Translations under genes and position numbers: made by a program
NCBI GenBank assembly: GCA_016748015.1
Contig: JAAOMT010000436.1
Coordinates: 2,275,622 to 2,339,621, forward strand
DNA length: 64,000 nucleotides
DNA from: Geosiphon pyriformis uo1
Lineage: Eukaryota > Fungi > Glomeromycota
Reading direction: 5' to 3'
In this document: positions 1,847-64,000 of the stretch, piece after piece
Layout: each line of letters begins with the position of its first letter
Position numbering within the stretch: position 1 is the stretch's first letter
The notes under the pieces: model-generated
What the model saw: the letters and a program-made list of their open reading frames with translations, nothing else
Databases searched by the model: none
Told to the model about the DNA's origin: nothing

Positions 1847-2503
1847 ATGAACAATTATTTCCTGGATTAAAACATTCAAAATGCTTTCTATACTCTCCAT
1901 GAATACTGGATCAAGAACTATCCAAATGCTACTCTGACTATCGAAAAACAAACCACTATAATAGACAACAGTGGAACTCACACTGTTATTAGACCAAAGA
2001 AAACAACTACCAGAAGAGAAAGAATTGGTGGCAAAATGGATAAATACCTACTGGAAAGCATAACAGCAGTGATACTTTCACCTTTCAGCACAATTGGAAA
2101 AACAATACAAGAAATCTTGCCCATAGACAAAAACTTGTCATATGGAAGACAACTAGAACTCTATAGTCATCTTGGTGAAATCATAGAAGACATGAAGCTC
2201 ATGAAGAAAACAACTTCAGAGATACAAGTGGAAATTTTGGGCATTATACGATTGGATGTCCCAAGAGTTTTGACCATTACAAAAAGAGCCAGAACTCTTA
2301 TACAAAGATTTGGTCTCTTGGATACAAAGCTTATTTTGCCTCAAGTACTATATACTCTATCCACAAAAGACTTCAACAAACTAGTTAGTTTTGAGTTAGA
2401 CAAAACCCTTCACATAGACTATCCCATAAATAGTTTGATTTTGCCAGAGCTCAATCTTTTTGGAGAGGATGATGTTATGGTTGAAACACATAGTTTTTAT
2501 TAA
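1847..2503 (+). pseudogene. ORF3 of A1 (extra ORF after integrase), one premature stop
   Basis: ATG at 1847 is in frame with ORF 2036-2503; TAA at 1868 where A2/A4 have CAA; TATAAATA at 1801-1808; reads through the PPT into the LTR. Confidence 0.85.
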
Positions 2504-3150: not shown

Positions 3151-3886
3151 TTACGATTGAAACCCATAGTTTTTATTAGTTATCACATGTATTAACCACT
3201 GATGTCATATAATTAGCCATTCTATTTTTAGATAGTGATTGTTGACCTGATCAATGACCTGACTGTTGACTTGATCATTAACCTGATCATTGACCTAATC
3301 AATGACCTGATTGTTGACCTGATCATTGACCTGATCATTAACCTGATCATTGATCTGGTCATTGACCACTTTAGATAGCTATATAAGCGATAATTCTCTT
3401 AGCTGTAGAAAGACATGATCAAAGTAACAAAATAAACAATATCAATTACTTCCTCTTATAATTGTTTATTCCCCTTTCCTTACCTTTAAGTATCTACTTG
3501 TTGGCATTCACATACCTTATTTTTTCTCCTTCTTGATTTGTATTTGTTAGAATTAGCCTGAGAAACAATTGGCTTGTTCTTGTAATTCATTGAATAAAGA
3601 AACAATTGAAAAGTACAACGATACCTGTTATTGATTCTAAAAATCGCCAAGTTGAGGCATAGAATAATAGCAGTAGTGTTATTTTGTTGACAATCACGGA
3701 CTATTCCTCTATCTTCAGATTTAAGAAAAGATTAGCGACTGTGATTTTTATGAAACTGATCACACACATTAAATTCCTACTTATTCAATTTGCTCCTTTA
3801 TTGTAATTTCCTCTTTGTTTATTTCCATTATCATACAATACTGTTCTTCCTTACTATCCATTAGCTTGTTACTCTAACCTGTAACA
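3151..3886 (+). repeat. Second family-A LTR directly abutting the A1 LTR (lacks the first TG)
   Basis: Near-identical to 2473-3150 with eleven 12-bp units (3236-3367); ends GTAACA and is followed by family-C gag. Confidence 0.93.
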
Positions 3887-10970: not shown

Positions 10971-12447
10971 TGTTATAGGTAAACTTGTTGAAATATGATA
11001 GTAATATTTAATACTTTAAATTTGGATAAAAAAGCTTAAAAGTTTCTATTATAAACACTTAAAGTAAGTTAGTAATATTAGTTTTTAAAAGTTTTTGCTA
11101 ATTTTATCTATAGAGTTTTTTGGTTATAAGACACAAAAAAATGTTTTGGCTGTTTGTAGCTTAAGTATATAAGCTATTTTTTCTGAACTAGTTAAATATA
11201 GTTACTAAAATCTGGCAGTATTTTTTTGCTCTTCTAATAAGCTAACAAAATAATATTAATATTTAATTCTAAAAAAAGTTTTTTTTTTTATTAAGCTATT
11301 ATAAAGTCTATTTTTAGACAGTCAATTTTAGAATATTGTTACTCTATAAGAGAATAAAAAAAAGATAAAATTTAAAAAAAAGATAAATTAGTATTATCAA
11401 TTACTGTAATTAAGAACAATTAGTCCAAGTTATTAAGATTTTACTACAATTATATTAAGAACATCTGGCTAAAAACTAAAATAAAAGAAGTAATTAATTT
11501 AGTTAAAACATATAGATTTAAGATTTAAATATAAGTGATTTAGTTTTGACTATTTTTTTTATTTGAAGTAATATAAATATAAAATATAAATAAGATTAAT
11601 TTACAAAAAAGATAGAAAAAAAAATAGAAAAAAAATTGTTTTTTTTTATCTGTTTTTTTTTATTTTTTAAAACTATTTGTTTTTATATATTTTCTTTAGC
11701 TCTACAAGATTGTTTTTAATCATTTTATTATTAATAACTATTACTTATTATTTCTGTTATTGTATTGTTTTTTTATGTTATTATTAATTATGTTAGGTTT
11801 TGATTGATTATTTTATACTATATTATGTTATTATATTGTTATGGATTGGAGTAACAAGCTAACAAATAGCAAGGGAGAACAGGATTGTAGGGTGATAGAA
11901 ATAATCAAAGAAGATTCAACTTCAATGAGCAAATTGAATGAGTATGGATTCAATATGCAAGATCAGTCTCATAAAATATCTTAGTCGCTATTCTTTTCAA
12001 AAGGTAACAAGGAAATCTGAAGATAGAGGGATAGTCCATACTGTCAACAATTGATCACCACTAGTATAATTCTATGCCTTACGTCGGCACTCTTAGAATT
12101 CAATATCAGGTATCAACTTGTGCTCTTCAGTCACGTTTATACAAATAGTTTTCAAATACTACAATTATTCAAACAGGAAAAGACCAACAAGTAATCTTTT
12201 ATCTTAAGATGTTCGGATACTTGAAGTTAGGGAAAGGGAAATTAGTGATAAGAGAGTGATTAAGATAAAAGTTGTTATTTTTATTTATTTGATTCTTGTT
12301 TGAGAGATGATTTTCTACAGCTAAGAGACTTATTGCTTATATAGCTATTGAAAATGGTCAATGATTAGGTCATTGATCAGGTCAATAATCACTATCTAAA
12401 AATAAAGTGGCTAATTATATGACATCAGTAGCTAATACATGTAATAA

Positions 12448-13104
12448 TTAATAAAAATTATGGGTTTCAATCATAACATTATCCTCTTCAAAGAGATTGA
12501 GCTCCAGCAAAATCAAGCTATTTATAGGGTATTCTAATTGAAAAGTTTTGTTTAACTCAAAACTAACTAGTTTGTTGAAGTCTTTTGTGGATAGAGTATA
12601 TAGTACTTGAGGCGAAATAAGCTTTGTATCCAAAAGACCAAATCTTTGTATAAGAGTTTTGGCTTTTTTTGCAATGGTCAAAACTCTTGAGACATCTAAA
12701 CGTATAATGCCCAAAATTTCCACTTGTATCTTTGAAGTTGTTTTTTTCATGAGCTTCATTTCTTCTATGATTTCACCAAAATGACCATAGAGTTCTAGTT
12801 GTCTTCCATATGACAAGTTTTTGTCTATGGGCAAGATTTTTTTAATTGTTTTTCCAATTGTCATGGAAGGTATAAGTATTGCTGCTGTTATGCTTTTCAG
12901 CAAATACTTATCTATTTTGCTACCAATTCTTTCTCTTTTGGTAGTGGTTTTCTTTGGTCTAATAACAGTATGTGTTTCACTGTTATCAGTTATGGTGATT
13001 TGTTTTCCAATGGTCAGAATAGCATTTGGATAATTTTTGATCCAGTACTCATGGAGAGTATAGAAAGTGTTTTGAATATTTTGATCTAGGAAATAATTGT
13101 TCAT
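12448..13104 (-). CDS. ORF3 of A2, intact, about 218 aa, unknown function
   Basis: Open frame from ATG 13104 (MNNYFLDQNIQN...) to a stop inside the 3' LTR; TATAAATA at 13143-13150; closely similar to the A1 copy. Confidence 0.8.
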   Translation of the reverse strand: MNNYFLDQNIQNTFYTLHEYWIKNYPNAILTIGKQITITDNSETHTVIRPKKTTTKRERIGSKIDKYLLKSITAAILIPSMTIGKTIKKILPIDKNLSYGRQLELYGHFGEIIEEMKLMKKTTSKIQVEILGIIRLDVSRVLTIAKKAKTLIQRFGLLDTKLISPQVLYTLSTKDFNKLVSFELNKTFQLEYPINSLILLELNLFEEDNVMIETHNFY

Positions 13105-13145
13105 GTTAATTGAAGATACCTCTGTTTTGGGAATGGTGCATTTAT

Positions 13146-16100
13146 TTATATCTGATTTTTGTTGATTATTTGGGTCGGTATTACCACAACAGATAACCAA
13201 TCAGGTCATTTATAATATTTTTTGAGTCGTGTGCCATAAACAGGGCGATCATTAAAGATTGTTTCATATTGATCTTGTAAGATATAAAAACCATTGTTCA
13301 AAACTTTGTTGATTATAAAGAGTCTTTTCTACCGGCTAGAGAATTTATCACCATAGACATTGTCTCTGTCTGAACGGTATTCTAAAACTAAGTTACCAAC
13401 ACTTAAGGAAAGTGTTTTATATGTTTTTTTTTTTCTTAAGCTTCTCTTGGAATTGTTTTATCTTTTCAAAAACAATTATCCATGCTTCTACTAATGAGTC
13501 AAGAATGGTACCAAGTCTTCTTTGCAAAATGTCTTTGTAATTTTTTATTGTTATTTCTTTAAAGGGTATTGTCTCAATGTTAGTTTCTATTGGTAGGGTT
13601 GCCATTTGTTTATAGAGTAGATAAAAGGATTCATAACTTGTTATGTTATGATTCACAGTTCTATAAACAAACAAAGCTGAAGGCAGTACTTTGTCCCATA
13701 AGTTTGTTTCTTCACTGGTTTTGGCTAGGGTTTCACATAGTGTTCTATTGAAATGTTCTATTAGGCCATTTGTTTAGAGGTGATAAGGAAAGGAAAGTTT
13801 GTGACGTATTTCCATTTTTCTGCAAAGTTTTTCAACAAGTGTACTGAGAAAAGCTCTTTCTCTGTTAGATAAAAGTTCTTTGAGGCAGCCATGGTGACAA
13901 ATGATATCTTCATAAATGAAATTGGCTATTGAAACTGCTGTTTGGTCTGGAGTGGCTCTTGCTTTTACCCACTTTGTAAGATAGTCAGTAGCTGTGATAA
14001 TGTATCTATTGCCATCAGGAGTTATTGTTAAAAGTCTAACAACATCTATACCAATTCTGTCAAAGAGTTGACCAACAGAGATTGAATAGATATCTTCTTT
14101 GCGATTGGGTTTTTCTCTTTTTTGGCAGATATCACAGGTTTTGATATATTTAGCAATATCTTTTCCCAAGATAGGCCAATAATAACGAGCTAAGGTTTTC
14201 TAAATTGTTTTTGTTTTTTCAAAGTGTCCAGCTAATGGATCAGTATGCATATTGTAGATCACAATTTCTTTTTCTTCAAATCTGATAATTATCTGGGAGC
14301 AGTCAGGATCTTTTCTATTTTTTTTATAAAGTTGGTTCTGGTGAATCAAATAAAAATTTGATTGTTTGCACAAATGTTCTCTTTGTTGTTGTGTGTATTT
14401 TGGTGGATATTGTCCTTTACCCAAAAATTCTATTAAGACAGTGTAGTTGTTTAAGTCCATTATCATGTTTGTCAAAAAAGAGGAATTACTAATAATTAAG
14501 TTGGTTTGGTTTGAGAGGGTTGTTCTATCACTGGATGGTAAGTCTGGAGAGAGCATCGGCGTTTTGATGATTAGCTTCTTTGCGATGTTGAATATCATAG
14601 TCAAATTCATCTAAGTGGAGTATCCAGCAAGTTATCCATTTGTGTTCTAGCCTCTTTTTGTTGCACAGCCAAACCAAAGCTTGGTGATCTGTTACCACCA
14701 AAAACTTCACACCAAGAAGATACTTACTCCAGTAACTGGTGGACCATACTACTGCTAAGCATTCTTGTTCAGTGACTGAATAGTTCTGTTTTGCTGAAGA
14801 AAGAATTCTGCTGGCATAGGCTATGGCATGTTTTTTGTCATCTTTATTTTTCTGGAAGAGAACAGCACCAAGTCCAAAGCCAGATACATCAGTGTGGAGG
14901 ATAAAGGGTCGATTTAGATTTGGTTGCTTGAGGATGGATTCTGTAACCAGTTTTTTCTTTAAAGTTTCAAAGGCTTTTTGCTGATGTGTTCCCCAATGAT
15001 AATTGACATTTTTTCTAAGTAGCTGATTGAGAGGAAAGGTGATTTTAGAGAAATTCTTGACAAATTTGCGATAATAAAAGGCCAAACCAAAAAAAGAGCA
15101 TAGTTTATGAATGTTCATTAGTTGTTTGATGTTTTGGACTTTTTCAACTTTGGCTGGGTCAAGAAAGATTCTATCTTTTGTGATAAGATGACCAAAAAAC
15201 TGGGTGGATTGTCTTCCAAAGAAAGATTTAATTGGGTTGATCTTGAGGCCAGCATTTCTGAGGAGGTCAAAAACCTTTTGCAAATGTTCCAAGTGTTCAT
15301 CCCAGGTTTTTGAGTATACTATTATGTCGTCCAAATAGACTAGAACAAAATTTTCTTTGACTGATTCAAATACTTTATCCATTAAGCATTAAAAGGTGGA
15401 AGTGGTGTTGGTGAGACCAAAAGGCATGACTGTGAATTCATAGGTGCCATACTTGGTGATGAAGGCAGTTTTTTTTCTACTTTCTGGATTCATCTCTACT
15501 TGTCAGAATCCAGCAGTTAAGTTAATGGTTGAGAAGAAAGCAGCATCTTTGAATTGGTCTAACATTACATCAATCTTGGAAAGTGGGTACATGTCTCTTT
15601 CAGTGATGGCATTTAATTGGCAGTAGTTAACACAGAAGCATAATGTTTCATCTTTCTTGAATACCACTACAACTGGGAAAGCCCATTCACTCTTGGTTTT
15701 TTGTATGAATCCAAGTTCTTTCATCCGGTTTATTTCTTTCTTGATAAACTCATCATTGTGCCAATTGGATTGATAAGGCTTTAAATGGATGGGTCAAGTT
15801 TCTCTGGTGGTAATAGTGTGTTGTATTACATGGGTACATCCAGGGGTATCACCTTTTTTGGAGATAACTGGGCTATTTCTAGCCAGCAAATTTTTAATGT
15901 CTATTTTTCTTTCTTCTGAGGAGGGTTCTTTTTGTTTTATAGTCAGTGATTAGATCTCAAGTGGTTCATTCTTAAAGAACTTCTGTATTTCTTTCAATTC
16001 TTCTCTGGGTATCAAACTGATTGGTTCCCAATCTTTGTAATAGATCAGGCATGATTTGTATTTATCACTTGGAGAATACAAGAGTTTATTGCACCAACAC

Positions 16101-18765: not shown

Positions 18766-18794
18766 ACAATAGGAAACAAAGTGGATTTTAACAA

Positions 18795-18811
18795 TCTTAC
18801 AGGGAGCACCA
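18795..18811 (-). promoter_or_regulatory. Primer-binding site of A2 (TGGTGCTCCCTGTAAG)
   Basis: Complementary to a tRNA 3' end ...CAGGGAGCA-CCA; 6 nt from the LTR; same in A3 (from 43161) and A4 (from 52277). Confidence 0.85.
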
Positions 18812-21705
18812 CTTTTATGTTACAGGTTGAAGTAACAAGCTAATGGATAGCAAGGGAGAACAGGATTGTAGGGTGATGGAAATAATCAAAGGGGATTCAA
18901 TTTCAATGAACAAATTAAATGAGTATGGATTCAATATGCGAGATCAGTTTCATAAAATATCTCAGTTACTATTCTTTTCAAAAGATAACAAAGGAATCTG
19001 AAGGTAGAGGGATAGTCCGTACTGTCAACAATTAATCACCACTGGTATAATTCTATGTCTCACGTCAGCACTCTTAGAATTCAATATCAGGTATCAACTT
19101 GTGCTCTTCAGTCATGTTTATACAAATAGTCTTCAAATACTACAATTATTCAAACAGGAAAAGGCCAACAAGTAATCTTTTATGCTAAGATGTTCAGATA
19201 CTTGAAGATAGGGAAAGGGAAATTAGTGATAAGAGAGTGATTGAGATAAAAGTTGTTATTTTTATTTATTTGATTCTTGTCTGAGAGATGATTTTCTACA
19301 GCTAAGAGACTTATTGCTTATATAGCTATTAAAAGTGGTCAATGATCAGATCAATGATCACTATCTAAAAATAGAATGGCTAATTATATGACATCAATGG
19401 CTAATACATGTGATAATTAATAAAAATTATGGGTTTCAACTGTAACAATATTTTTGTATTGTATTATCCTAAATTATTATGTATTTTTTTGTGTTATTTT
19501 GCATTATTACATTTTTTTTATATTATTATGGTTTTTCCATAACTTTGAATGGGTCTTTCTATATAAGTAATATTATTCCTCTTTTTTAGAATTCAGCTCC
19601 TACAAAATTGTATTTTTATATAATATTCAATTATTTATTAAGTATTGTTTTTTGTAGATTTTCAAATTGTGAGTTTGTTATTTGCTTTATGCTGTTAACT
19701 GTAATAGTTTTTAGTATACTATTTAGCAATACAACTGGACAGTATTTAAATATAGCATATAGTTAATACGTTGCTTTGTAGTATAATGTTAAATTGTTTT
19801 TTTTAACAAATTTTTTTACTTGTTTAAAAGCTTTTCTGTTGAATATTTATTTGTTAATATCTATGTATAATATTTGTAAGTCTAGTTTTTCACTAATTTT
19901 AAAGAATTAATACACTAGTAGAAGTCTTTTTTTTCATACTTTGGAGTTTTTTGGTGTCTATTTTTTCATGTTAGAAAGTTTTAATCTCTTAAAAAAAAGC
20001 TTATTGGATTTTTTTTAGTATTAGAAATCACATACTCTTTTTTTTCTTTTTTTCTCATATATAAAAATAAAACATTCAGTTTTTTTTGAATTTTTGTCCA
20101 TTTTTTTTTGTTCATGTCTTTGTATCATATTTTTTTTCTATTAATTGTAATTTCTATTAATGTTGTGATTTGTTGAATTGCTTCAAATAATTGTTTTAAA
20201 AGTTTTAATATTTGATTTGAAAAATCTATATTAAAAATACTATTGACTTTTTTTTGTTGTCTTAATCTTTATATATACTTAAATTTTCTTAATTAAATAA
20301 TCATATATTGATTATATTTCAACAATAATAATTGGTTTTAAATCTTATGATATATTTTCTGGTTTAATTAATAAAATTTGTATTCTTAATTAAGATATAG
20401 ATAACAATAATTCTTGATTTATATAATAAATTTTTAACTAATTTTCATGTGCTACTTTTTTTAAAATTCTGTTTTTCAATCTTAATTTGTAAGTTTTATT
20501 GTCTAAAACTTTATATATGTAAAATAGTTTATCTTACTTTAGGTGGCTCTGGTTCTTAAGTTGTGGTAGACTTTTTGCATACAAACATTGATTGGTTTAG
20601 GTCATCTTTGGTGTGGCATTCTAATTCACATTTGGTCTCCGACTTTATTAGTAGGAGTACTACTAACACTTGTACTTATTTTATGAAGGCTTTGTATTAC
20701 TGGCTTTTTATTACTGTTCATAAGCATTTGTATACCAAAAGTTATCCAAGTGTGGTATTTTTGTTTTGTGGAAATATTGAGGTTTCAGATCATGCTTTCT
20801 TCTGTTCATTTAATTCTGATGTTCATGTTCAGCTGCTGGACACTTATACAGCTGAATGGAGGGTAATTTCTGGTCTGTTTCACTTAGTATTACAGATGAT
20901 TATTTGGGGTCTCAAAGCAAATAACAAATCCATAACTTGGTGCTTGGTTGGTATTCTGGTGTTAATATCTGAAGGTTTTGTTGATCTGAAAGTTTTGTTG
21001 TGGAGTTTTTTATATAATGGACAGAGATTTAATAGTTGTTTTTAGTAGTCTTCCAGAATTGCAATTCTGTCGAATTTCTTTCTCAATGTAATGGCTGGTA
21101 ATCCTCCTGATAAGCTATCCTCAAATCTATGAGTGTTCTACCCTTGTTTCACAAGTCTTTTACCAGTCCTTATGACGTCTGTAACTTAGCACTTTAATCC
21201 TTAATCAATTTAGTAAATAACAAAAGAAAATAAAAGAAAATAAAGAAATAAACAAAAGCAATTGCAAGTTAGTATACTGTCAATAGCCATAATCAAAAGC
21301 TATTGTTTCAGTGTGATTAAGTATTACTATCAACATGAAGTGTTAATAGTGGAAAGTAGATTGAGATGGTGAATAATTATTTATTGATAGTTGTGAATAA
21401 AATGTTTGTTTAGATCAGATCTAAACTGGAAGATCTCTAACTAAAAAATTTTGTCTTTTTTACTTCTAGTACTACTGCTATATATACATAATCGAAATTC
21501 CTCAATTCCTCAATTCTTCACACCAGAAATCTTAGAATTCCTGAAATCCTGCAATTTCTTATACAAGAATCCTGAAATTTCTGGAATTCTGCAATTTTTC
21601 TTGAGAGAAATCCTGAAATTCCACATTTACTATGGCTACTTCTAATTGGCTAATTTATATGCTAATATACTCCCTATGTTCTATAAGTAATATTATTTCT
21701 TCCTT

Positions 21706-22311
21706 TTAATATTGAGCTTCATCAAGATCTCCTAAATCTCCTAACTCTAATTTACTGTTTTTGAGTATTTTTTGAACTTTTTTTTCAAAAATTACTTGAG
21801 TTATTTTGTTCTGTAATTTTTCAAATTGGGTATTAGTTATTTTTTTTATTTGGTTAACTATGATAGAGTCTATTCCTGGATAAAATAAGATTTCTGATTT
21901 GTCTTAAAATTCTGTATGTAGCTAATAGATAGCTTTTACTTGTGTAGTCAAATTGTTTTTTCCCACAAACTATTCTAGTTGTTGTAATATTGTTGTATCA
22001 AATAATCACTTTGTTTTATTCATATATAGGTTTTGAATATTCAAGTATTGTCCCAAGTAGAAATAGCAAAAGTTTCTTAGAAATTTGTGTATCCACCATT
22101 TCCAAGTTTTTTTTGGTCAACTCTTGATATGTGGTGACACTTGTTGGTTCTTTTATTGCTAATTTTATCTTCAGAACTATTTTGTCGATAGTATTTTTTT
22201 GGTATCTCAGTATCAAATGGTTTGTTGATTAATAGTAATTTCTATATTCTGTTGTTGAATTAGTTGGAAAAATTGTTGTGCTAATGAGTGGATATTGTCA
22301 GTAATTTCTAT
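21706..22311 (-). pseudogene. ORF3 of C1, decayed; separated from its TATA box by the B1 insertion
   Basis: Translation (EITDNIHSLAQQFFQLIQ...YFYLGQYL...QQLE*FVGKNNL...VNQIKKITNTQFEKLQ) aligns with B1 ORF3; TATATAAA at 32566-32573. Confidence 0.75.
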
Positions 22312-23172
22312 TTTTTTGAAGTCTTTTGTCATATTGTTATAGGTAAACTTGGTGGATATAGGAAATGGTAATGTTTTGTGCTTTTAATTATTGATGACGC
22401 GTCTTTCACATAATTCTGTTGGCTTAGTCTTGATTATCAGTCTCTGAAGGTCTATTCCTGGATGTGAATTTACCCGTCAAGTTCTTTGGTTATAAGGCAC
22501 AGAGTTTGTCTTTCGTCAATTGTAATGTTTTTTGTTAATGTAAGCTCTCTTTTCTGAGCTAACAAGCACAGTCATTAGAGTCTGGCATTGTCTTTTCACC
22601 CTTCTGGTAAGCTAACAAGATAAAGTTAATATCCAAAACTTAGGGGAAGCTTCCCTTTTTTACCAGGCTATCACGAAGTCTATTCTCAGACAGTCAATTT
22701 TACTATGTTGCCACTCCACAAAAATAAGACAGAAAAAGAAAGAAAAAGAAAAAGAAAAGAAAAGAAAAGAGAGAAAAGATAAATTAGTATTGTCAATCAC
22801 CATAATCAAGAGCGATTGGTCCAAATCATTAATAGGTTTGAGGTGGTTATGCTAAGAGCATCTGTCTTAGAATGGAGATATAAGATAAGGGTTAATTCAC
22901 GTAAATTCCACGAAGTTCGAGAACATCAATTCATGATTCTGATTTCTTTAATAATTGGTTTATTTCAGGAGATGAAAGAGAGAAGATAATAAAAGATGAA
23001 GGGGTATGGATATTTTAATTCTTGTCTAAAGGTTTGTATCTATTTGTCTGTCTTTTCTCACTTTTACAACTACTTGCTTTTATACATTCTTTTGGTTTTA
23101 CAGGATTGCTTTCAATTGTCTCACTATTGCTAACTATTGCTTTGTTGTTTCTGTTATTGCTTTGTTTTTCTA

Positions 23173-23362
23173 TGTTATCGCTAGTTATCCTATGTTATAA
23201 CACGTTATCTGACATTATTACATGTTATTCTGTGTTATCCTGCATTATAACACATTATCCTATGTTATTGCACACTATTCTGTGTTATCCTGTATTATAA
23301 CACGTTATCCTATGTTATAATGCATTATCCAATGTTATTGTGTGTTATTCTATGTTATGTCA
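23173..23362. repeat. Family-B U3 array: about 19 units with strict 10-bp period, core (T/C)GTTAT
   Basis: TGTTATCGCT AGTTATCCTA TGTTATAACA CGTTATCTGA...; second copy at about 32308-32497. Confidence 0.9.
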
Positions 23363-23430
23363 TATTTTGGTCACATTTCTTTATAACTTTGGATCAGTTT
23401 TTCTACTCGGGTAACATTATCCCTCTCTTT

Positions 23431-24165
23431 TTAAAATTGAGCTCTTGCAAAACCATATGTATCTGTTATCGTGGCTTTGTTTATGTAATGTTCAATTGTT
23501 GCCTCGAGTATTGTCTTTTGTAGGTCTTTGAACTGTTGATTGGTTATTTGTCTTATGTTATTAACCATTATGGTTTTCATAGATCCATTCAGTAGTACAT
23601 TTGGACAATGTTGAAAGGTGGCATATAGTTGGTATGCTGCTTTGTAATATAGGGTCAGGTTTTTTTTCCCTACAAATTTTTCTACTTGTTGTATTGCTTC
23701 TTTGTTGAATGTTTTCTGGCTGAAGTTTTTGTATGGTGTTTTCAAGTCAAGCTGTTTTTCAATTTTATAGAACCAATTAGCTGGAAAAAGTCTTTTTTTC
23801 CATTCCTGGGGATTGTCAAGTGTCCACTTCTCTGTTTTGGGGAGTTCAGTTTCACGAGCTAAAGCTTCTTTTATTTTTTTGAGCTTGGGGACCAAGTATC
23901 TTCTTTTGTAATCTTTTTCTTGTTCTTTGTCTCCTTCTTTTCCACCTCCCACCTGAAAACAATTTTTCCTCCAACATTGCCTTTCAGGTGGTGGGTAGGG
24001 GAAGGAATGTTTAGTTCTAATTGAACTCTTGTCCTCCCTTCTCCTGCTCTTATCTTTGTACCATATCTCTTTTTTATCAATTGTTATTTCTATTTGAGAT
24101 GTCAATTTTTGAATTGTTTCAAATAATTGTTTAGATAATTTTAAAATTTGATCTGAAAGGTTCAT
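23431..24165 (-). CDS. ORF3 of B1, intact, 244 aa, unknown function
   Basis: Open ORF between the integrase stop (24246) and the PPT; TATATATA at 24204-24211; hydrophilic and basic. Confidence 0.82.
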   Translation of the reverse strand: MNLSDQILKLSKQLFETIQKLTSQIEITIDKKEIWYKDKSRRREDKSSIRTKHSFPYPPPERQCWRKNCFQVGGGKEGDKEQEKDYKRRYLVPKLKKIKEALARETELPKTEKWTLDNPQEWKKRLFPANWFYKIEKQLDLKTPYKNFSQKTFNKEAIQQVEKFVGKKNLTLYYKAAYQLYATFQHCPNVLLNGSMKTIMVNNIRQITNQQFKDLQKTILEATIEHYINKATITDTYGFARAQF

Positions 24166-24245
24166 GTTGAAATTTCTATTGTTTCTTGCTGCTTTTTAGA
24201 TGCTATATATATTTGAATTTCCCAATTTAATTTGCTGCCCATTGT

Positions 24246-27200
24246 CTACATTTCAATGACAATGATTGGTTCCAGATCTCATGGTATATCTTCTGGTCTG
24301 ATTAATGAAATTTGTGTTCTTAGTTGAGGTACTGATAACAATGATTTTTGTTTTACATGATAAATTTTTAACCAATTTTCATGTGCTACTTTCTTTAAAA
24401 TCCTGTCTTCCAATTATAATTTGTAAGCTCTATTTCCTAATGCTTCATGTATGTGGAATAGATCATCCCACTTTGGGTCAAACTTTCCACTCCACTGTTT
24501 CTCAGCTTTTGTACGATGTAACAGTACTTGGTTTCCAATCTTGAATTCCATTGGTTGTTCTGATAGGTGTTTATCATGTCTTTCTTTTTGTCATTTTTAA
24601 GTGTGACTAATATTGTCAGCTGCTGTTTTTCGATTGTTTTCCAATGTTTTCATTAGCTGGTATGTTCTTTGGTGTAAGGTAGCTTCAAAATTCTCTTCAT
24701 TGATTGTTTTTGTTGGGTATGATGGTATTACTCGTTCAATTGGTAACGTAGCTTTTCTTCCATAAACTAGTTCAAATGGTGTGAACTGAGTCATATTTTG
24801 TTTTAATGTTCAGTATGCAAAGAGTACAGAAGGTATAAATAAGTCCCATTCTTGTCTGTTTTCATGACTTATTTTTGCTAGTGCTTCACACAGTGTTCTG
24901 TTAAATTGTTCTATCAGCCCGTTCATTTGTGAGTGGTATAATGACAATAAGAGTTTCTTTATTCCAAACTGTTGGCTTAGTTCAATCAGTGTATTATTAA
25001 TGAAGTGTGTTCCCTGATCAGATAATAATTCTTTCGGACATCCATGTCAGCAAATTAGGTCTTGATGCACAAATTTGGCTACTGTTTTGGCATCAGCCAC
25101 TTGGATTGCTCTGGCTTCTGGTCATTTTGTAAGATAGTTTATGACTACAGCAATATAGCAATTTCCTTGGGATGTAATTGAAAGGGGCCCAACCAAATCA
25201 ATCTCGATTCTATCAAATGGATTTCCAACTGGAATGGGTCAAAGTGGTTTTGTTGATCTTGCTCCTCCTTTTCGTTGGTATGCGTTATAATTGAGCACAT
25301 ATTCAAAAATGTCTTTATATATTGTTAGCCAATAGTATAAGTTTAGTGTTCTTTCGAGGGTAGCATTTTTGTTAAAGTATTCTGCAGTCAGATCTGAGTG
25401 CATGCTATATAGTATAGTTTCTCTTTCACTGTTCTTGATTAGTCATTGTAAGTTGGGGTAATTTTGGCATTCTCGTCAATATAGTTGGTTGTCTTGAATA
25501 AAATAATTTCAGGCTTGTTTTCATATGGTACTCTGTTCCTGTTGAGATAATATCTCCTTAAAACATAGTGTCAATAGATACTGATGTAGTCATTGATAAG
25601 TGAGTGTGTCCATGGGTCTGAGATTAGGTTTGTGGCATTCTTGACAAACTGTCGGCATTGGTGTTCTTGGATCCTTCCTTGTAATGGACTTCGAGTGGGA
25701 ATTGTTGCAGATAAGTACTTCATCTTGCATATTTTCTTTCTAGTTGTGGATTGTTGAGTAACCAAATAAGTCCTTTGTGGTCAGTATATAGGTCAAATGG
25801 TTGACTGAAGTAATGTTTTCAAGTCTATATGGCCCAATAAATAGCAAGACATTCCAGATCTGTTGTGCTGTAATTTTTTTCTACTGGACTAGTGCTGTGA
25901 CTAGCATAGACAACTGGGTGTTCTTTATTGTCTAGTCTTATCTGTAATAAGACTGCTTTTAGAGCATTTTTTGAGGCGTCCATAGTGACAATAAACTGTT
26001 TAGTGAAATCTGGATAAATCAGGATTGGGGATGTGATCAATCACTACTTGAGATAGTCGAATGCTTTTTGTTGATCTTTCTTCCACAAGTACAGTACGTA
26101 TTTGGACAACAATTGATGGAGTGGTTTTGCAATGTTCAAAAAACCTTTGACAAATCGACGATAATATTTTGCCAATCTTAGAAATCCTCGTAATTCTCTA
26201 AAGTTGATTGGGGCTGGAAAATCCTTGACTTTTTGTACTTTATCTGGATCGGGTTTAACTCCATTCTTGCTGATTACATGTCCTAGGAATTTTAACTCAG
26301 TTTTTCCAAAGAAGCACTTTTCAGGATTGAGTTTCAATCCAGCACTATAAAGGCATTTGAAGATTTGTTGTAGGTAGAGCAGATAGTCATCGAATGTTTT
26401 GGAGAACACATTTGTGTCATCTAGATAGACTACTACTAATTTCCAAAGAATTCCTTTGTATACTACATCCATCAGGCATTGAAATATGGCAGGAGCATTA
26501 CAAAGTCCAAAAGGCATTACATTAAACTCAAAGTTTCTATCTCAAGTGGTAAACGCTGTTTTTCCTTTGTTTTTGGGGTCCATTTCAACTTGCCAGTAAC
26601 CACTTGCTAAATTTAATAACAAGAACCATTTCTTTTTCTCTAAATTGTCCAGAATTTCCTGGATAAGGGGAGTGAGATAACTATCTCCTTGTGTAATGCT
26701 ATTTAATTTTTGATAATTTATGCAGAATTGTACTTTTCCATTTTTCTTGGTGACCAAAACTACTGGAGAAGACCAAGAGCTTAACAATTCTTTGATTAGG
26801 CTGTTATTAAGTATTTATTGCACTTCTTGCTTAATTAAGTTATTACCAGATGGGGGTACATGGTAAGCTCGTTGCTTAATCGGTCGAGCATCTCCCGTAT
26901 CAATCTGATGCTTTATAATGTTGGTGCATCTGAACTCATTTTCACTGGCAAAGACATTGGCATACGGATTCAGAAGGACTTTGAATTGCATTTGTTGCAG
27001 AATACTTAAATTTCCTAAATTCAATTTATTGATCTCTTTTGGTGTGAACAAGTAACTTTTTTTTGGCAAATTTCATACTTGTAAGGTAATGTTACAGAAT
27101 AAGAATAATTGTGTGAAATTTGGAATGGACTGGGGTTTTTCAGAATTTTGAATATCTACGAATATGAAACTGATAAGGGTCCCTTCGGGAATTTCAATGA

Positions 27201-31407: not shown

Positions 31408-32593
31408 TTTTATGTATTTTTGGGGGTGCTCTGTTTCTGTGGATTTATAACCTTACAGGAAGCACCAAATGTTACGGGTAAACTTGGTGGATATGGGAAA
31501 TGATAATGTTTGGTGCTCTCAATTATTGATAACACATCTTCCACGTAATTCTGTTGGCTTAGCTTTGATTATCAGTCTCTGAAGATCTATTTTTGGATGT
31601 GAATTTACCCATTGAGTTCTTTGGTTATAAGGCACAGAGTTTGTCTTTCGTTGATTGCAACGTTTTTTGTAAATGTGAGCTCTCTTCTCTGAGCTAATAA
31701 GCACAGTTGTTAGGGTCTGGCATTGTCTTTTTGCCCTTCTAATAAGCTAACAAGATAAAGTTAATATCCAAAACTTAGAGGAAGCTTCCCTCTTTTATCA
31801 GACTATCACAAAGTCTATTCTCAGACAGTCAATTTTACTATGTTGCTGCTCCACAAAAATAAGACAGAAAAAGAAAAAAAAAGAAAAAGAAAAAAAAAGA
31901 AAAGAGAGAAAAGATAAATTAGTATTGTCAATTGCTGTGATCAAGAGCAATTGGTCCAAATTGTTAATAGGTTCGAGATGGTTATGCTAAAAGCATCTAT
32001 CCTAGAACAGAGGTACAAGACAAGGGTTAATTCACGTAAATTTCACAAAGTTCAAGAACATCAATTCGTGATTCTGATTTCTTTAATAATTGGTTTATTT
32101 CAAGAGATGAAAGAGGGAAGATAATAAAAGATGAAAGGGTATGGATATTTTAATTCTTGTCTAAAAGTTTGTATCTATCTGTCTGTCTTTTCTCACTTTT
32201 ACAACTACTTGTTTTTATACATTCTTTTGGTTTTACAGGATTGCTTTCAATTGTTTCGCTATCGCTAGCTATTGCTTTGTTGTTTTTGTTATTGCTTTGT
32301 TTTTCTACGTTATCGCTAGTTATCCTATATTATAACACGTTATCTGACATTATTACATATTATTCTGTGTTATCCTGCATTATAACACATTATCCTATAT
32401 TATTGCATGCTATTTTGTGTTATCCTGTATTATAACACGTTATCCTATGTTATAATGTATTATTCAACATTATTGCACATTATTCTGTGTTATGTCACGT
32501 TTTGGTTACATTTCTTCATAACTTTGGATCGGTTTTTCTACTCGGATAACAATGTCTACTATGTCTTTATATACTTTTTTTTATTGTTCAATT

Positions 32594-35500
32594 TTACGTG
32601 TTTGGTTCAATGATTATGATTGGTTCCAGATTTCATGGAATCTCATCTGATTGGACTAATATTCTCTGTACTCCTAATTGTAGAATATTACTGGTAGATA
32701 GTAATACTATATGGTAATATGGTTTCAGTCAATCACTATATGCTGCTTTGACTAAGATTTTGTTGTTCTATCTTAATTTATAAGCTTCATTTCCAAGAAT
32801 TTCTTTTATGTGAAATGGTTTGTCTTATTTGGAGTCAAATTTTCTACTTTATTGTTTTTTTATTTTGGTATGATGTAAAAGTACTTTGTCTCCAATCTTG
32901 AATTTAATTGGTTTATTTGGTAGTTGGTTGTCATGTCTTTCTTTTTGTTTTTTTTGTGACTTTTGGATGTTATCAGCTGCTTTTTGTCATTTGTTTTCTA
33001 GTGTTTCCATCAAGTTATATGTTCTTTTTAGCAATATTTCCTAAAAATTGTCTTCAGTTATTGGTTCTGTTAGATAAGTGTTGACTTCTATCTCAACTGG
33101 TAATGTTGCTGTTCTATTGTATACTAATTTAAATGGTGTTACTTGTGTAGTGTTTTGCTTCATTGTCCAATAAGCAAATAATACTAATGGTATAAACAAG
33201 TCTTATTTGTCTTGGTTTTTTTAACTGATCTTGGTAATTGCTTTACACAATGTTCTGTTAAATCTTTTAACTAACCCATTTGTTTGTGGATGATATGGTA
33301 ATGATAATGGTCTTTTTATCCCAAATCTTTGACTTAATTCTGCCAATGTTCTATTCACAAAGTGAATTCTTTGATCTGATAGTAGTTCTTTTAGACATCT
33401 TTGTTGACATATCAAATTTTGATAAATGAATTCAGTAATGGATTCTGTGTCTGTTCTTTGAATGGCTTTTGTTTTTGGCCATTTAGTGAGATAGTCCATG
33501 ACTACTGCAATATATCTGTTGCCTCTATTGGTGATTGTTAATGATCTGATTAAGTCAATTCCAATGTGATCAAATGGTTGTTCTACTTTAATTGGTTTCA
33601 ATGGTTCTCTGGCTCTTGTTCTTCCTTTTTTCTGACAAACATTACAATTTTGAACATATTGGATGATGTCTGGATACATTAATGGCCAATAATATCTTTT
33701 TCTGGTTCTTTCTATGGTTGTTTCTTTATGGAAATATCCTGCTGTTGGATCTAAGTACATGTTGAATAATATTGTTTCTTTCTCTGGTTCTGTAATTACT
33801 TTAGTTGGTTGATTTGGATTTTTTCTGTTCTTCCAGTAAAGTATATTTTGATGGTTGATAAAATATTTTGATTGTTGTTTTATGTTTTTTTGTTCTTTTT
33901 AAGATAATTTTTCCTTGAACAATTGGGTATTTATATAATATTATAGTTGTTGGTATTTTTGTATATTCATCTTTTGTTATATTTTTGGGTTAAAATGTTT
34001 TTAGATTTATTTCATTGATGACAGACCATTAGCATTTCCATTTTTTTTCTCTTTTTGTAATATACTGTATAATTAAATGGTGAAAGTTCTATTTTTCATC
34101 TAACATAGTAGTTGTCTCCAAATTTCTGTTTCTGAATTGAAGTCAATCCTTTGTGATCAGTGTACACATCAAACTTTTGACTTAAGTATTCTTTCCACTT
34201 GATAACAGCCCAATAGATAGCTAAGTGTTCTAGTGCTGAAGTTCTATAGTTCTTTTCAGCTGAACTTAAGCTTCTACTGGCATAAACTACTAAATGCTCT
34301 CTTCCATCCAGTCTTCTCTGTGATAGTACTGCTTCCAATGCTTAACCTAATGCATCAGTTGTTATTATGAATGGCTTGCTATGATCTGGATAGATCAGTA
34401 TTGAGGCTTAAACAAACTTTCTTCTCAATATGTTAAAAGCTTTTTGTTGAGTTTTAGTCTATTTGTATTTGGTGTTCTTTGTTTGGAATTGGTATAATAG
34501 TTGAGTTATTTTGGAAAAGTCTTTGATAAAGTGGTGGTAATATCCAGCAAATTCCAAGAATGCTCTCAATTTTGTGAGATTATTTGGTACTGGAAAGTTC
34601 TTGACAATCTTAATCTTGTCTGAATCTGTTTTAATTCTGTCTTTGCTCATCACATGTCCCAAAATCTTGAGTTCTGTTTTTCCAAAGAAGCATTTAGTTG
34701 TATTTAGCTTTAATCCAGCTCTTCTTAGTCTTTCAAACACTTGTTGAAGATAATGTAGATGATCATCAAATGTTTTCGAAAACACATTGGTGTTATCCAA
34801 GTATACAACTACTGATTTCCATAGTAGTCTAGTATAAACAATTTCTATAAGTCATTGGAATGTTGCTGGAGCATTCATCAAGCCAAATGGCATTACTTCA
34901 AATTCAAAATTTCCTTCTCAAGTTGTGAAAGCTGTTTTCTTCTTGTCTTCTGGTTTCATGGCTACTTGCTAGTAACCACTGTCTAAGTCTAACGTTGAAA
35001 ACCATTTCTTTTCTCCAAAAGCATCGAAAAGTTCTTGGATCTTTGAAGTTGGGTAACTGTCTCTTTTTATTACTCCATTCAGTTTCTGGTAATTCACACA
35101 AAAGCAGATTTTTCCATTTTTTTTACAGACTAGTACTACTAGTGATGACCATAGACTTATTGATGGCTGAATAAACCATTGTTGAGCATCCGATTAATTT
35201 CTTGACAAATGATCTTATGGCTAGCTGATGGTACTCTATATGCTTTTTGTTTAATTGGCATTGTATCTCTAGTCTTGATTTAATGTTGGATGATGTCAGT
35301 TCTGTCAAATTTGTTTTTGTTAGCAAAAATGTTATTGAAGTTGTTAAGTAACATCGTGAGTTGCATCTGTTGAAGTGGGTCTAGATTTCTCAAATTCATC
35401 TGTTTTAATTGTTCTGGTTGGAGCAAATAACATTTTTCTTATCCATATATGGTTTGAGATATGATATTCACATATTCACACAGTTGTGAAAAGTCTGAAA

Positions 35501-52986: not shown

Positions 52987-55900
52987 TGTTACCAGAGGTT
53001 TTTGGTCTCTTTTTTTAAATGTTGTTGATGCTTGTTTGCTGTGAATTCATGTTTTCTGGATGTGGTTGAACCTCCAATAACTGAATTTATCTTCAAATTA
53101 TCTCCTATAATTTGAATTGCTGGGCTTATAAGTGGAATGGCCAATTCCGTGCCAGTTACTTTATGTAGTTACGTTGTAGTAAATGTCAACTCTTTTCCAG
53201 GAATTGCTCATTTGGAAGCTCACTAAAATGTATAGTTATTTTGCTATGAAAGTCAACTCTTCTACAGGAATTTCTTCTGTAGGCTACCCTAATGATTATA
53301 GTAAGAAAATAAAAAGAAAATAAAAAAAATATAAAAGAAATAGAATTCTGTCAAGAGAGACGTTTTCAATCCAGGCCTGGAGTCACTAACAGTTTATTGA
53401 AATTGGTAGCTAATTAATTTCAAAACGTTAGTTGGGTTTTGAAGATTTTCCAAGTGTAATAATTAAAGAATTTGGTTTTTCAATTTATTTGATATTTATT
53501 TCTTTTTGTGTGTATAGGAATGGTTCTAAGTGATAAATCTAAAGTAAGATACATTTTCTTGAAGAGAGAAGCTCTTCTTTTATACAACTTGTCATAACAC
53601 TATTCTATGAACTTGAACTTTGCTATTTTTTACAATTTCATTGAACTAAAGATATATTTTGGCAAACTACAAGTTATTTCTGCAAACTATTAGATATTTC
53701 GGTGAACTATCAATTATTTTGGTGAATTTCTACTAATTTCAGTGAACTTTTAAATGTTACATAGTTTGGGATATTGCATGATTGATCATCACAATTAGAT
53801 TACATTTGTGTTGTGTTCAATTTGGGTTATTAATTAAATGATAATTTTGGACATTTTTGCTAATGTAATAAGTGATAATTTGAAATGATAATATATACTA
53901 ATTAATGATAGGAATTATAAGATAATTTCATGCTAAATAATATCTCTAATTTCATTTGGTAACATAACCTTCTCCTCAAAACTGAGCTCCGTTGAAGTCC
54001 AAGTACTGTTTGTCATTTCCAGATAATAATTCAAAATTATTGAAAAAATTTCGTCTGAAAATTGTTGAAATTTCAGTTCTGTGTATTAAGAGCTATATTA
54101 ACTGGAACTGTGAATCATCCAGTTGAACCAAAACCTTGGGTTTTTCTATCGCTTTTTCCTAATTGTTCTCTTTGATTGACTAGTTGCAAACCCGAAATGT
54201 TGATTAAGAGTAGGTAAATAGTTTGGGCAATTTTTTCAGCATGTTCAATCTTGAATAGTTTGTTAGTTTCATTTTGAAACATCACTGTAATGTCTCCAGT
54301 ATATTTGGCATTGATTATTCCTCCTCTGACATTGATTTCTTTGCTTGCCAGAGAGGACCGGGAGGTGATTTGAACTATTGCTCCTGGTAGGATTTCGAGT
54401 GCAATTTTGAGGTTGATTTTTGTGAAAGATTTGGGTTTGAGAACAAAAGTATCCTTGCCTGGATATCTTAGGTCATATCCAGCATCAATTTTGTGTGCTT
54501 TTTTAGGTTTTATTCCTTGTCCGTTGTTGTTGAAGTATTTAAGTTGTAAGGCAGGCTGATTTTTGATAAGGTAGATAAGTGTTGTTTCAATTTCTTCCAT
54601 TGCTTCAGGTTCTCTAAATTCAATTTCATTCTCATCATTTTCGCTAGGCAAGGGGATACTAAAAGCGTAGCATTCAAGACACTACTGTTCATTGCAAGGC
54701 ATAATGCATTCTTTACATAGCCTAATGTTCATTTGCTCTAATCGTTGAATTTGAGCTTTTTGGGTTGGGTAGGTGTGACTTGCAATTTGGTGGTAGACTT
54801 CTACTTCATCTTCGTAATTGAATCCAGCTAATTCCATGGTGTATTCAATGTATTCTGCTTCCTTCATTTGACAAACATCTTTTTTGGTAGCTCCATTAAT
54901 TAATGCCATTGCTAGATTGAAAATTATCTCAGCATCATAGAAGTAGTAATAAAGTTTGTTGAGAGCACTGTTGTATGCTGCATTAAAGAGTGTTCCTCTT
55001 TTTACTTTTTCCGAAATTGATAAAGCATATTGACAGGTCTGATCACAGACTCTTCCTCTCATGGCTACATCAATCCAATTGCATTCTTCCAGTAGCATAT
55101 CTCCACAAGTCAAACAAGAGATGTTGTCCCATTTTCTGCTCCTTTTTATTAGATGGCCCCATCGTTCTCTGTGGCAAGTCTTGCAGTAATAACAAGTATG
55201 ATTTTCATATTCTTCTTCAGGTAAAATACAGACTCCTATTGATGATAGTTTCTTGTGGCAGTCCTTACATTTAAGGGGAATATAGGGGCATTGTTTCCTT
55301 GGTTTGGGTTTTGAGTAAGGGATATTCCATCCAGAGGTTTCGGGTTCAGAGTGTGGGGTAAAATGTTCTTGTTCTTTCATCGGCCCAGTTGAACATTGAT
55401 CCAAGAGCCATGAATGTTTCAATGAGGGGTTTTTCCTCTTCCAGTTCGAATTCAAAAGCTGGGGCTTTTTCAAAGCGTTTGTTGAATATACCACAAGTGG
55501 TAGGTATTCAGGTGTGTTGTCCTTGGTAGGAAATTGTTAACTCTTGTGTTTCCCAATTCAGATTAGCATTGGCTTTTTGAAGCCAATCATTTCTGATGAA
55601 AGCTTGGTACTGGGGTGCGTTCATTACAAGAACTTTGACTGGAATGGTAATTCCATCAAGAGTGAATGGAAAATTGTCAATTTCTCTTACTGGGGTCTTT
55701 TTCATGCCATCGGCAGTGACAATTACTGTTTGAGCTGGTCGGTCAACATTTCTCTTCAATTGTTGCATTAACTGGTAGGTGATAATGCTTCCGGCGGATT
55801 CACTGTCTAGGATCAAGTGAATTGTTTTTCCTTTGATTTCTGCTTCAGTGTACATAGCCGTGATTGCTTTTTGTTTATTGGCGGCTGCATTGTTAAACAG

Positions 55901-62700: not shown

Positions 62701-63866
62701 AAGATCCTGACTGCTCCCAGAGAGTCATAAGATTTGAAAAAAAAGAAATTGTGATCTATAACATGCACACTGATCTATTAGCTGAACACTTTGGAAAAAC
62801 AAAAGCAATTCAGAAAACTCTAGCTCACTATTATTGGTCTATCTTGGAAAAAAACATTGCTGAGTACATTAAAACCTGTAACACCTGCCAAAGAAGAGAA
62901 AAACCCAATAGAAAAGAAGATATCCATCCAATCTCTGTTGGCCAACCATTTGACAGGATTGATATAAATGTTGTTGGACCCTTAACAATAACCCTTGATG
63001 ACAACAGATACATTATTACAGCTACCGACTATCTTACAAAGTGGGTAGAAGCAAGAGCCACTTCAGACCAAACAGCAGTTTTAATAGCCAATTTTATTTA
63101 TGAAGATATTATCTGCCATCATGGCTGCCCCAAAGAACTTTTATCTAATAGAGGAAAAGTTTTTCTCAGTATACTGGTTGAAAAACTTTGTAGAAAAATG
63201 GAAATATGTCACAAACTTTCCTCCCCTTATCACTCTTAAACAAATGGCCTAGTAGAACATTTCAATAGAACACTGTGTGAAACCCTAGCCAAAACAAGTG
63301 AAAAAACAAACTTATAGGACAAAGTACTGCCTTCAGCTTTGTTTGCTTATAGAACTGTGAATTATGACATAACAAGTTATGAACCTTTTTATTTGCTCTA
63401 TGAATGAATGGCAACACTACCAATAGAAACTGATATTAAAACAATACCTTTTGAAGAGATCACAATAAGAAATTACAAAAACATTTTGCAAAGGAGACTT
63501 GGTACCATTCTTGACTCACTTGTAGAAGCACGAATAATTGCTTTTGAAAAGATAAAACAGTTCCAAGAAAAGCTTAAAAAGAAAAAAACTTATAAAACAC
63601 TTTCTTTAAGTATTGGTGACTTGATATTAGAATACCATTCAGACAAAGACAATGTCTATGGTAATAAATTCTCTAGCTGGTGAAAAAGACCCTTTATAGT
63701 CAACAAAGTTTTGAACAATGATTCTTATATTCTTCAAGATCAATCTGAAACAATCTTTAATAATTGACCTGTTTACAGCATGTGACTTAAGAAATATCAC
63801 AAATGACCTGATTGGTTGCCTGTTGTGGTAATACCGACTCAAATGATTAACAAAAATCAAGTATAA
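59795..63866 (+). pseudogene. pol of A4 (protease, RT, RNase H, integrase)
   Basis: LILDSG, MPFGLTNAP, HTDTSG, H-H-C-C integrase; the stop codon lies within the TATAAATA at 63862-63869. Confidence 0.93.
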
Positions 63867-64000
63867 ATAAATACATCATTTCCAAAACAGAGGTATCTTC
63901 AATCGACATAAACAATTATTTTCTGGATCAAAACATTCAAAATGCCTTCTATACTCTCCATAAGTATTGGATTAAAAACTATCCAAATGCTACTTTGACC

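What the first reader, a model, noticed from the sequence alone, without database searches (positions are those of the whole stretch)
12448..13150. Conserved non-env ORF3 with its own TATA box across the gypsy families: candidate element-encoded trans-acting factor
Seen: families A (1847-2503, 12448-13104), B (23431-24165) and C (21706-22311) each carry a 200-245 aa ORF between integrase and PPT, and D1 keeps a C-terminal stub (TELKFQQFSDEIF..., about 53965-54083). In A, B and C a TATA box lies 33-40 nt before the start, at or just after the integrase stop: TATAAATA at 1801, 13143 and 63862; TATATATA at 24204; TATATAAA at 32566; also kept in decayed B0 near 20270. The proteins are basic, with no signal peptide or TM segment, so not env. 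B and C align clearly; A aligns weakly (aromatic-x-L/I-G motif, K/R-A-xx-hydrophobic, I-x-x-N/Q...F-xx-L). Inference: a separately transcribed accessory gene. Because each family also has its own U3 repeat array and the TEs show strong methylation-type decay, ORF3 could be a sequence-specific activator or anti-silencing factor, analogous to VANC proteins of Arabidopsis VANDAL transposons, which target short repeated motifs.
Basis: partly seen in the sequence, partly recalled or inferred. Interest (0 to 1): 0.88.

Follow-up and report, generated by a model that had tools for sequence, protein, structure and literature searches.

The report
Fungal retrotransposon gene with own promoter
Several jumping-gene families in the fungus Geosiphon carry a real extra protein gene of no known family behind their integrase, preceded by promoter-like signals, and its product likely binds DNA through a predicted helix-turn-helix and would regulate the element's own expression, much as a foamy virus regulator does; neither the transcript nor the binding has been tested.

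Summary
The window is a nest of decayed Ty3/gypsy LTR retrotransposons of Geosiphon pyriformis. A third ORF after integrase is real. It is intact in A (218 aa) and B (244 aa), broken by 12 stops in this C copy but intact elsewhere (209 aa), and a stub in D. B, C and D are homologous; a link to A could not be shown. A has distant relatives (26-32% identity) in unnamed environmental assemblies. A TATA box lies 41-48 nt before the start in every family with that region, and a CCAAT box 50-58 nt before the TATA in A, B and C, so a separate promoter is likely; no RNA data were available. There is no membrane segment and no Pfam, PHROG or PDB family, so it is neither env nor VANC. A low-confidence model gives a helix-turn-helix bundle with only weak matches to DNA-binding domains. 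Best reading: an element-encoded DNA-binding regulator arranged like foamy-virus Tas (0.4). 'Basic' is not a conserved trait, and family-specific U3 recognition is unsupported. New variant of a known kind.

The parts
12448..13104 (-). ORF3 of family A, copy A2, intact, 218 aa; reads through the PPT and ends inside U3 of the 3' LTR
13143..13150 (-). Internal TATA box (TATAAATA) of A2, overlapping the pol stop codon at 13146-13148; 46 nt from its first base to the ATG
13197..13203 (-). CCAAT box (reverse orientation) 53 nt before the A2 TATA, inside the integrase tail; overlaps a match to the core of family A's U3 repeat
12479..12490 (-). Polypurine tract of A2, inside ORF3
11837..12478 (-). 3' LTR of A2, with 12-bp U3 repeats at 12356-12391 and its own TATA box
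18818..19447 (-). 5' LTR of A2 (element 11837-19447, 4-bp target duplication)
1847..2503 (+). ORF3 of copy A1, stop at codon 8; TATA at 1801-1808, CCAAT 53 nt before it
63862..64000 (+). TATA and 5' end of ORF3 of copy A3 (start codon decayed to ATA), cut by the window end
23431..24165 (-). ORF3 of family B, intact, 244 aa, ends at the PPT
24204..24269 (-). Internal promoter-like signals of B: CCAAT box 24263-24269, pol stop near 24247, TATA box 24204-24211
22335..23416 (-). 3' LTR of B with 10/50-bp U3 repeats (23184-23358); B spans 22335-32551 and sits inside C
21706..22311 (-). ORF3 of family C, this copy with 12 stops; intact elsewhere in the genome (P0174, 209 aa)
32566..32654 (-). Internal promoter-like signals of C: two CCAAT boxes and TATA box 32566-32573, separated from ORF3 by the B insertion
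19613..20277 (-). Decayed, frameshifted B-like ORF3 (B0) with TATA at 20270-20277; no CCAAT match left
53969..54082 (-). C-terminal stub of family D ORF3 in an internally deleted element

Best explanation
These Geosiphon gypsy elements carry a third protein gene after integrase that is likely transcribed from its own internal CCAAT-plus-TATA promoter and is predicted to encode a small helix-turn-helix protein that would bind the element's DNA and switch on or keep on its LTR promoter. Shown: the ORF, its conservation as protein across B, C and D and between A and environmental relatives, the promoter-like signals, and the lack of env features. Inferred: a short transcript starting 10-20 nt before the ATG and ending at the 3' LTR poly(A) site. 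Predicted with low confidence: the helix-turn-helix. Untested: DNA binding, the target (U3 repeats upstream of the LTR TATA are the obvious candidate), and whether the effect is plain activation or relief from CpG-methylation silencing. The separate promoter would let the protein be made while the 5' LTR is silent, the logic of foamy-virus Tas.
For: Gene: 22 full-length A proteins among those stored; an intact C protein standing for 6 sequences; D scores 39 bits on a B/C profile, 0 of 1000 shuffles; 4 distant A relatives among 27 hits in 1.84 billion representatives plus P0173. Replacement-to-silent transition ratio 0.61 in ORF3-A against 0.48-0.58 in pol domains and 1.5-1.8 in the two wrong frames. 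Promoter: TATA-to-start 46, 46, 41 and 48 nt in A, B, C, B0 against about 1% background; 5 of the 8 TATA boxes (of 97) with an upstream CCAAT box are ORF3 boxes, background 6.9%; no variant at 4% or more within B's TATA among 790 laid contigs, so it is not a decay product of this copy. Fold: helices 96-113, 119-130, 134-150 at pLDDT 60-68 in the model of relative P0164; many of the weak matches are DNA-binding or helix-turn-helix domains: CHD1 C-terminal bundle Z 5.1 (rmsd 2.9, 69 aligned), DnaA domain IV Z 4.0, Spo0J and sigma region 4 Z 3.9; ParB clusters in rows 2 and 4 of the Atlas structure search, TM 0.38-0.39. ORF3 diverges faster than pol (B vs C: 27-32% against 55-60%), as do the family-specific U3 arrays.
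Against: Whole-model pLDDT is 49 and 40 for the window protein; every fold match is below the tools' own bars, the best by Z (5.7) is a photosystem subunit, Foldseek found nothing at E <= 0.001 and the second Atlas query did not repeat the ParB rows. The selection signal for ORF3 alone is not significant (p = 0.05; p = 0.12 when limited to mutable sites). The CCAAT boxes lie in integrase codons, the distance windows were chosen after looking, and the boxes come from only two independent lineages (A; B/C). Own-family U3 words are absent from B's internal promoter, C could not be tested, and A's words also match B and C. The environmental relatives are not basic. A versus B/C/D homology is not demonstrable.
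Confidence: 0.4

Rival explanations
1. ORF3 is a separately made accessory protein acting after transcription: it binds element RNA (export or protection from small-RNA silencing, like Rev or the CERV protein of the nematode element Cer1).
For: A small helical, membrane-free protein made apart from Gag-Pol fits; AM fungi have large Argonaute sets and TE-derived small RNAs (passages of 10.1101/2021.03.30.436303); CERV is a precedent in an LTR retrotransposon (PMC10309623, search listing only).
Against: No arginine-rich stretch is conserved across families (alignments); the predicted fold leans to helix-turn-helix domains.
Confidence: 0.2
2. ORF3 is a chromatin tether or integration cofactor that guides the pre-integration complex, standing in for the chromodomain these integrases lack.
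For: The integrase of C ends in an SH3-type domain with no chromodomain match; the best nuclear fold match is the C-terminal helical bundle of CHD1 (Z 5.1); the top Atlas structure row is an ascomycete SET-domain protein, aligned outside any named family (TM 0.49); elements nest densely in one another.
Against: A tether would more simply be fused to integrase, whereas ORF3 is in another frame behind a stop and a promoter; all matches are weak.
Confidence: 0.15
3. ORF3 is a self-limiting repressor or a factor that blocks competing families.
For: A DNA-binding fold says nothing about the sign of regulation; fast divergence between co-resident families also fits competition.
Against: These families reached very high copy number (13,068 contigs laid on 1.3 kb of A; LTRs are 41.2% of this genome, passage of PMC11952901).
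Confidence: 0.1
4. The ORFs are unrelated or functionless passengers: A and B/C/D captured different genes, the TATA boxes are chance products of AT-rich decayed DNA, and ORF3 is made, if at all, by splicing or re-initiation from the genomic RNA.
For: A versus B/C/D similarity is at chance level in five tests; A's TATA contains the pol stop codon; the selection test for ORF3 alone is borderline.
Against: Protein-level conservation at 21-32% identity across B/C/D and across A and its relatives; the same 46-nt spacing and a CCAAT box in both groups; collinear motifs in the joint alignment.
Confidence: 0.15

Closest known systems
Foamy-virus internal promoter and Tas (Bel-1) transactivator (PMC7390438, passages read)
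   Same: A TATA-containing promoter at the end of the last large gene drives a small gene before the 3' LTR; Tas binds DNA in both promoters and turns on an otherwise silent LTR.
   Different: A vertebrate retrovirus with env; the promoter lies in env, here in the integrase tail. No sequence or fold link to Tas was found, and the activity of ORF3 is untested.
Additional ORFs (aORFs) of Ty3/gypsy elements: maize Grande gene23, Retand, Athila (PMC7264820, passages); 'add. ORF' of fungal gypsy elements (PMC2864245, figure legend); rotifer ORF3s (PMC5408684, abstract); Botrytis brtn (10.1101/2021.04.13.439636, one passage)
   Same: An extra non-env ORF between pol and the 3' LTR; gene23 has its own promoter and a nuclear product; dUTPase-bearing elements with varied ORF3 occur in rotifers and fungi.
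   Different: gene23 and Retand aORFs are antisense, this one is sense; rotifer ORF3s are env, GDSL or DEDDy enzymes; this protein matches no described family. I did not compare it with the fungal 'add. ORF' or brtn sequences.
VANC anti-silencing proteins of VANDAL DNA transposons (PMC5735166, abstract; PMC13547354, passages)
   Same: Element-encoded accessory protein, fast-evolving family-specific tandem repeats, methylated host context.
   Different: VANC is on Mu-like DNA transposons of eudicots and is structurally related to MAIN; ORF3 is on a fungal retrotransposon, shows no such match, and has no demonstrated effect on methylation.
ParB/Spo0J-type helix-turn-helix domains
   Same: Predicted helical bundle with a helix-turn-helix; weak structural matches.
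   Different: No sequence match; scores under the tools' bars; E. coli YhcG (DUF1016) scores at chance against both profiles.

Membership tests
Ty3/gypsy LTR retrotransposon (host element) | LTRs with TG...CA ends, PBS, PPT, target duplication | tested here: met
   paired LTRs 85-95% alike, TGG-starting PBS, 4-bp duplications
Ty3/gypsy LTR retrotransposon (host element) | Domain order gag, protease, RT, RNase H, integrase | tested here: met
   B and C also carry dUTPase between protease and RT, A shows none
Chromovirus | Chromodomain at the integrase C-terminus | tested here: inconclusive
   the in-frame tail of C gives SH3_Tf2-1 and no chromodomain, but the copy is decayed and the A and B tails were read in the wrong frame there
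Envelope (env) ORF3 | Signal peptide and transmembrane anchor | tested here: not met
   highest 19-residue hydropathy 0.27-1.32; 0-3 cysteines; no dedicated signal-peptide program was run
Envelope (env) ORF3 | Match to a fusion glycoprotein family | tested here: inconclusive
   no such match in Pfam, PHROGs, PDB sequences or viral structures; absence does not exclude
VANC anti-silencing factor | Encoded by a Mu-like (VANDAL) DNA transposon | tested here: not met
   encoded by LTR retrotransposons
VANC anti-silencing factor | MAIN-like domain | tested here: inconclusive
   no Pfam hit and no such fold row, on a low-confidence model
VANC anti-silencing factor | Binds cognate repeat motifs and causes loss of methylation | not testable with these tools
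   needs binding assays and methylomes
Foamy-virus-like internal promoter/transactivator (works like) | Internal TATA promoter ahead of the accessory gene | tested here: inconclusive
   TATA and CCAAT signals well above background; no transcript evidence
Foamy-virus-like internal promoter/transactivator (works like) | Target sites in both internal promoter and U3 | tested here: inconclusive
   A's promoter window beats 46 of 46 other windows for 8-mers but is matched by 3 of 46 for 9-mers; none in B; C not testable; Tas sites themselves share little sequence
ParB-type / DUF1016-N / DUF3102 helix-turn-helix | Profile or confident structural match | tested here: inconclusive
   weak; negative by sequence; DUF3102 (recalled lead) could not be compared as a profile

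The most novel reading that the evidence does not exclude
A lineage of fungal Ty3/gypsy retrotransposons has independently evolved the complex-retrovirus design: an internal promoter in the integrase tail drives an element-encoded helix-turn-helix factor that recognises its own family's U3 repeats and reactivates methylated copies, with protein and repeat array co-evolving family by family. It would be a sequence-specific transactivator or anti-silencer encoded by an LTR retrotransposon, none of which turned up in my searches.
Probability: 0.25. Interest if true: 0.88.

Novelty: new variant of a known kind. Interest (0 to 1): 0.58.

Why it matters
LTR elements make up 41.2% of the Geosiphon genome (PMC11952901) although their CpGs are heavily depleted. 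How retrotransposons escape methylation silencing in mycorrhizal-lineage fungi is open, and this gene gives a concrete, testable candidate with several natural family-specific versions in one genome. If it is a DNA-binding activator it would show that self-encoded transcriptional control, known from complex retroviruses and some DNA transposons, also arose in plain retrotransposons, and it would name a protein family now hidden in well over a hundred 'hypothetical protein' models of this genome.

Tried and rejected
No whole genome is held for the window, so no genome-wide DNA copies and no proper dN/dS. Sequencing-run search: no RNA holder listed; this is no evidence either way. A versus B/C/D homology: pairwise, profile-profile, profile-sequence with shuffles and 15 global pairs all at or near chance, best z 2.1. 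Pfam and PHROGs: no hit reached a curated cut-off for any ORF3. PDB sequence searches: 0, 2 and 1 weak hits. Foldseek on PDB and viral models: nothing at E <= 0.001. First model (47 close copies) pLDDT 40, not searched. Locus scans found no relative in viral contigs, metagenome contigs (70, 81) or prokaryotic genomes (101), so the context of the environmental relatives is unseen; phage records gave 2 chance-level rows and none (97, 98). YhcG/DUF1016 and DUF3102 were recalled leads: YhcG scored at chance, DUF3102 could not be tested. The Atlas did not hold the Geosiphon proteins, so the B/C/D group has no model. No complex prediction was run, since no binding partner is claimed. 'Basic, therefore nucleic-acid binding' was rejected because the relatives have pI about 6 and G-to-A decay adds lysines. 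The TATA/AATAAA stretch as an internal poly(A) signal was rejected by reasoning: it would cut the genomic RNA.

Full report
Setting. All named homologues of the two intact ORFs are Geosiphon pyriformis hypothetical proteins (34 of 35 hits for B, the other being the window's own; 115 of the 120 listed of 129 hits for A, five rows without a name). The window is a stack of nested Ty3/gypsy elements around a host ZPR1 gene. They have paired LTRs, a TGG-starting PBS, 4-bp target duplications and the order gag, protease, RT, RNase H, integrase, with dUTPase in B, C and D but not A. CpG is strongly depleted in the elements (observed/expected 0.13 and 0.32) against 0.78 in the host-gene region, which fits methylation-driven decay; TE CpG methylation is documented in the relative Rhizophagus (passages of 10.1101/2021.03.30.436303), not in Geosiphon in anything I read.

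The ORF. A2 (218 aa) and B (244 aa) are open. A1 has a stop at codon 8, this C copy has 12 stops, B0 is frameshifted and D keeps 38 codons. Other genomic copies supply intact versions: 22 full-length A proteins among those stored, a 209-aa C protein standing for 6 sequences and a D-type ORF inside the fused model P0012. Many of these gene models splice around stops, so they are not all real proteins. B, C and D are homologous (21-32% identity). A profile of 47 A copies found 27 hits among 1.84 billion representatives, 4 of them distant proteins from unnamed environmental assemblies, and one search added a fifth; they are 26-32% identical to A. The two complete ones end like A, which reads through the PPT into the LTR, so they are probably ORF3s of related elements, but I could not see their DNA. 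A joint alignment is collinear (N-terminal helix and hairpin, aromatic-x-x-I/L-G, A-x-x-L, final helix), yet no test put A above chance against B/C/D. Since A's integrase is only 35-47% identical to those of B and C, against 55% between B and C, common ancestry could be beyond detection; it stays unproven.

Selection. Between A1 and A2 the replacement-to-silent transition ratio is 0.61 in frame, 1.77 and 1.52 in the other frames, and 0.48-0.58 in three pol domains. For ORF3 alone this is borderline (p = 0.05; p = 0.12 on mutable non-CpG sites); B against B0 is 0.68 for the C-terminal half and 1.30 for the frameshifted N-terminal half. The deep protein conservation is the stronger evidence.

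Promoter. The TATA box starts 46 nt before the ATG in both A and B, which share no detectable DNA similarity there, 48 nt in B0 and 41 nt in C once the nested B element is skipped. Background is 20 of 2104 ATGs, ORF3 starts included. A CCAAT box lies 53 (A, reversed), 58 (B) and 50 and 81 nt (C) before the TATA; of 97 TATA-type boxes in the window 8 have one, and 5 of those 8 are ORF3 boxes (background 6.9% of positions; B0 has none). Among 790 contigs laid on B's promoter no variant at 4% or more falls in the TATA box, so it is not an artefact of decay in this copy, though A/T sites vary little anyway. Caveats: two independent lineages only, windows chosen after inspection, CCAAT boxes inside integrase codons, no transcript data.

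Protein. No membrane segment and no family match. The Geosiphon copies are basic but the two complete relatives are not. The model of relative P0164 on 18 sequences has mean pLDDT 49, with 60-68 over residues 81-140, where three helices form a helix-turn-helix-like bundle. Matches among 48,161 chains are weak: a photosystem subunit Z 5.7, CHD1 C-terminal bundle 5.1, Raf1 4.8, DnaA domain IV 4.0, sigma region 4 3.9, Spo0J 3.9. The Atlas model of P0170 gave an ascomycete SET-domain protein (TM 0.49) and two ParB clusters (0.38-0.39), all under its bar; P0164 did not repeat them. These results concern the A group; B/C/D were not modelled.

Targets. Each family has its own U3 repeat array directly upstream of the LTR TATA. 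A's repeat core also occurs once at the internal promoter, on the CCAAT box (3 of 20 matches in the window are this one orthologous site, 15 are in LTR arrays, 2 elsewhere). The window test gives weak support in A, none in B, and A's words also hit B and C, so they may simply be host CCAAT-like sites.

Mechanism and comparison. I commit to an internally promoted DNA-binding regulator of the element's own LTR (0.4), with RNA-level factor, chromatin tether, repressor and passenger as rivals. It is arranged like foamy-virus internal promoter plus Tas (passages of PMC7390438) and belongs to the known class of gypsy additional ORFs (passages of PMC7264820; legend in PMC2864245; abstract of PMC5408684). 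It is not a VANC member (abstract of PMC5735166; passages of PMC13547354). Ten literature searches showed no description of this ORF or of an LTR-retrotransposon-encoded transactivator; only two library papers name both Geosiphon and gypsy, the Geosiphon genome paper (recalled) did not appear in those searches, and no supplements were read, so repeat libraries or supplementary figures may already draw it. Earlier AI notes of this scan report similar helical ORFs behind integrase in other fungal genomes; I did not test whether they are the same family.

Verdict. Real, conserved, undescribed accessory gene with likely internal promoter; function inferred, not shown. New variant of a known kind; interest 0.58.

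Noticed in passing
window 22331-22334 and 32552-32555; 52983-52986 and 58915-58918; 11833-11836 and 19448-19451: Target-site duplications are 4 bp (ACAT/ATAT, CCAC, ATAT), each compatible with a decayed central CG.
   Followed up: partly
window 52987-58914 (-): Element D1 has LTRs 95% alike, gag, protease and dUTPase, then jumps to the last 38 codons of ORF3: an internally deleted, non-autonomous form.
   Followed up: partly
window 54682-55380 (-): A 232-aa cysteine-rich ORF with several CxxC pairs between protease and dUTPase in D; no Pfam match above cut-off.
   Followed up: no
window 27451-27882, 35832-36287, 49608-50059, 54118-54597: dUTPase between protease and RT in B, C, a C-like element and D, but absent from family A.
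   Followed up: partly
window 2474-3886 (+): Two family-A LTRs lie head to tail; the second has a longer U3 array (10.5 against 5.5 units), and array length varies among the six A-type LTRs.
   Followed up: no
window about 6620-7100 (+): A very AT-rich relic of a further B-like integrase tail and ORF3 start.
   Followed up: partly
window about 7980-9200 (-): Host ZPR1 zinc-finger gene, in exons, wedged among the elements.
   Followed up: no
window 2447-2474, 12478-12504, 23416-23442, 53965-53989: A shared DNA motif (GAGCTC then a T run) precedes the PPT in A, B and D although ORF3 crosses it in different frames, suggesting a cis element.
   Followed up: no
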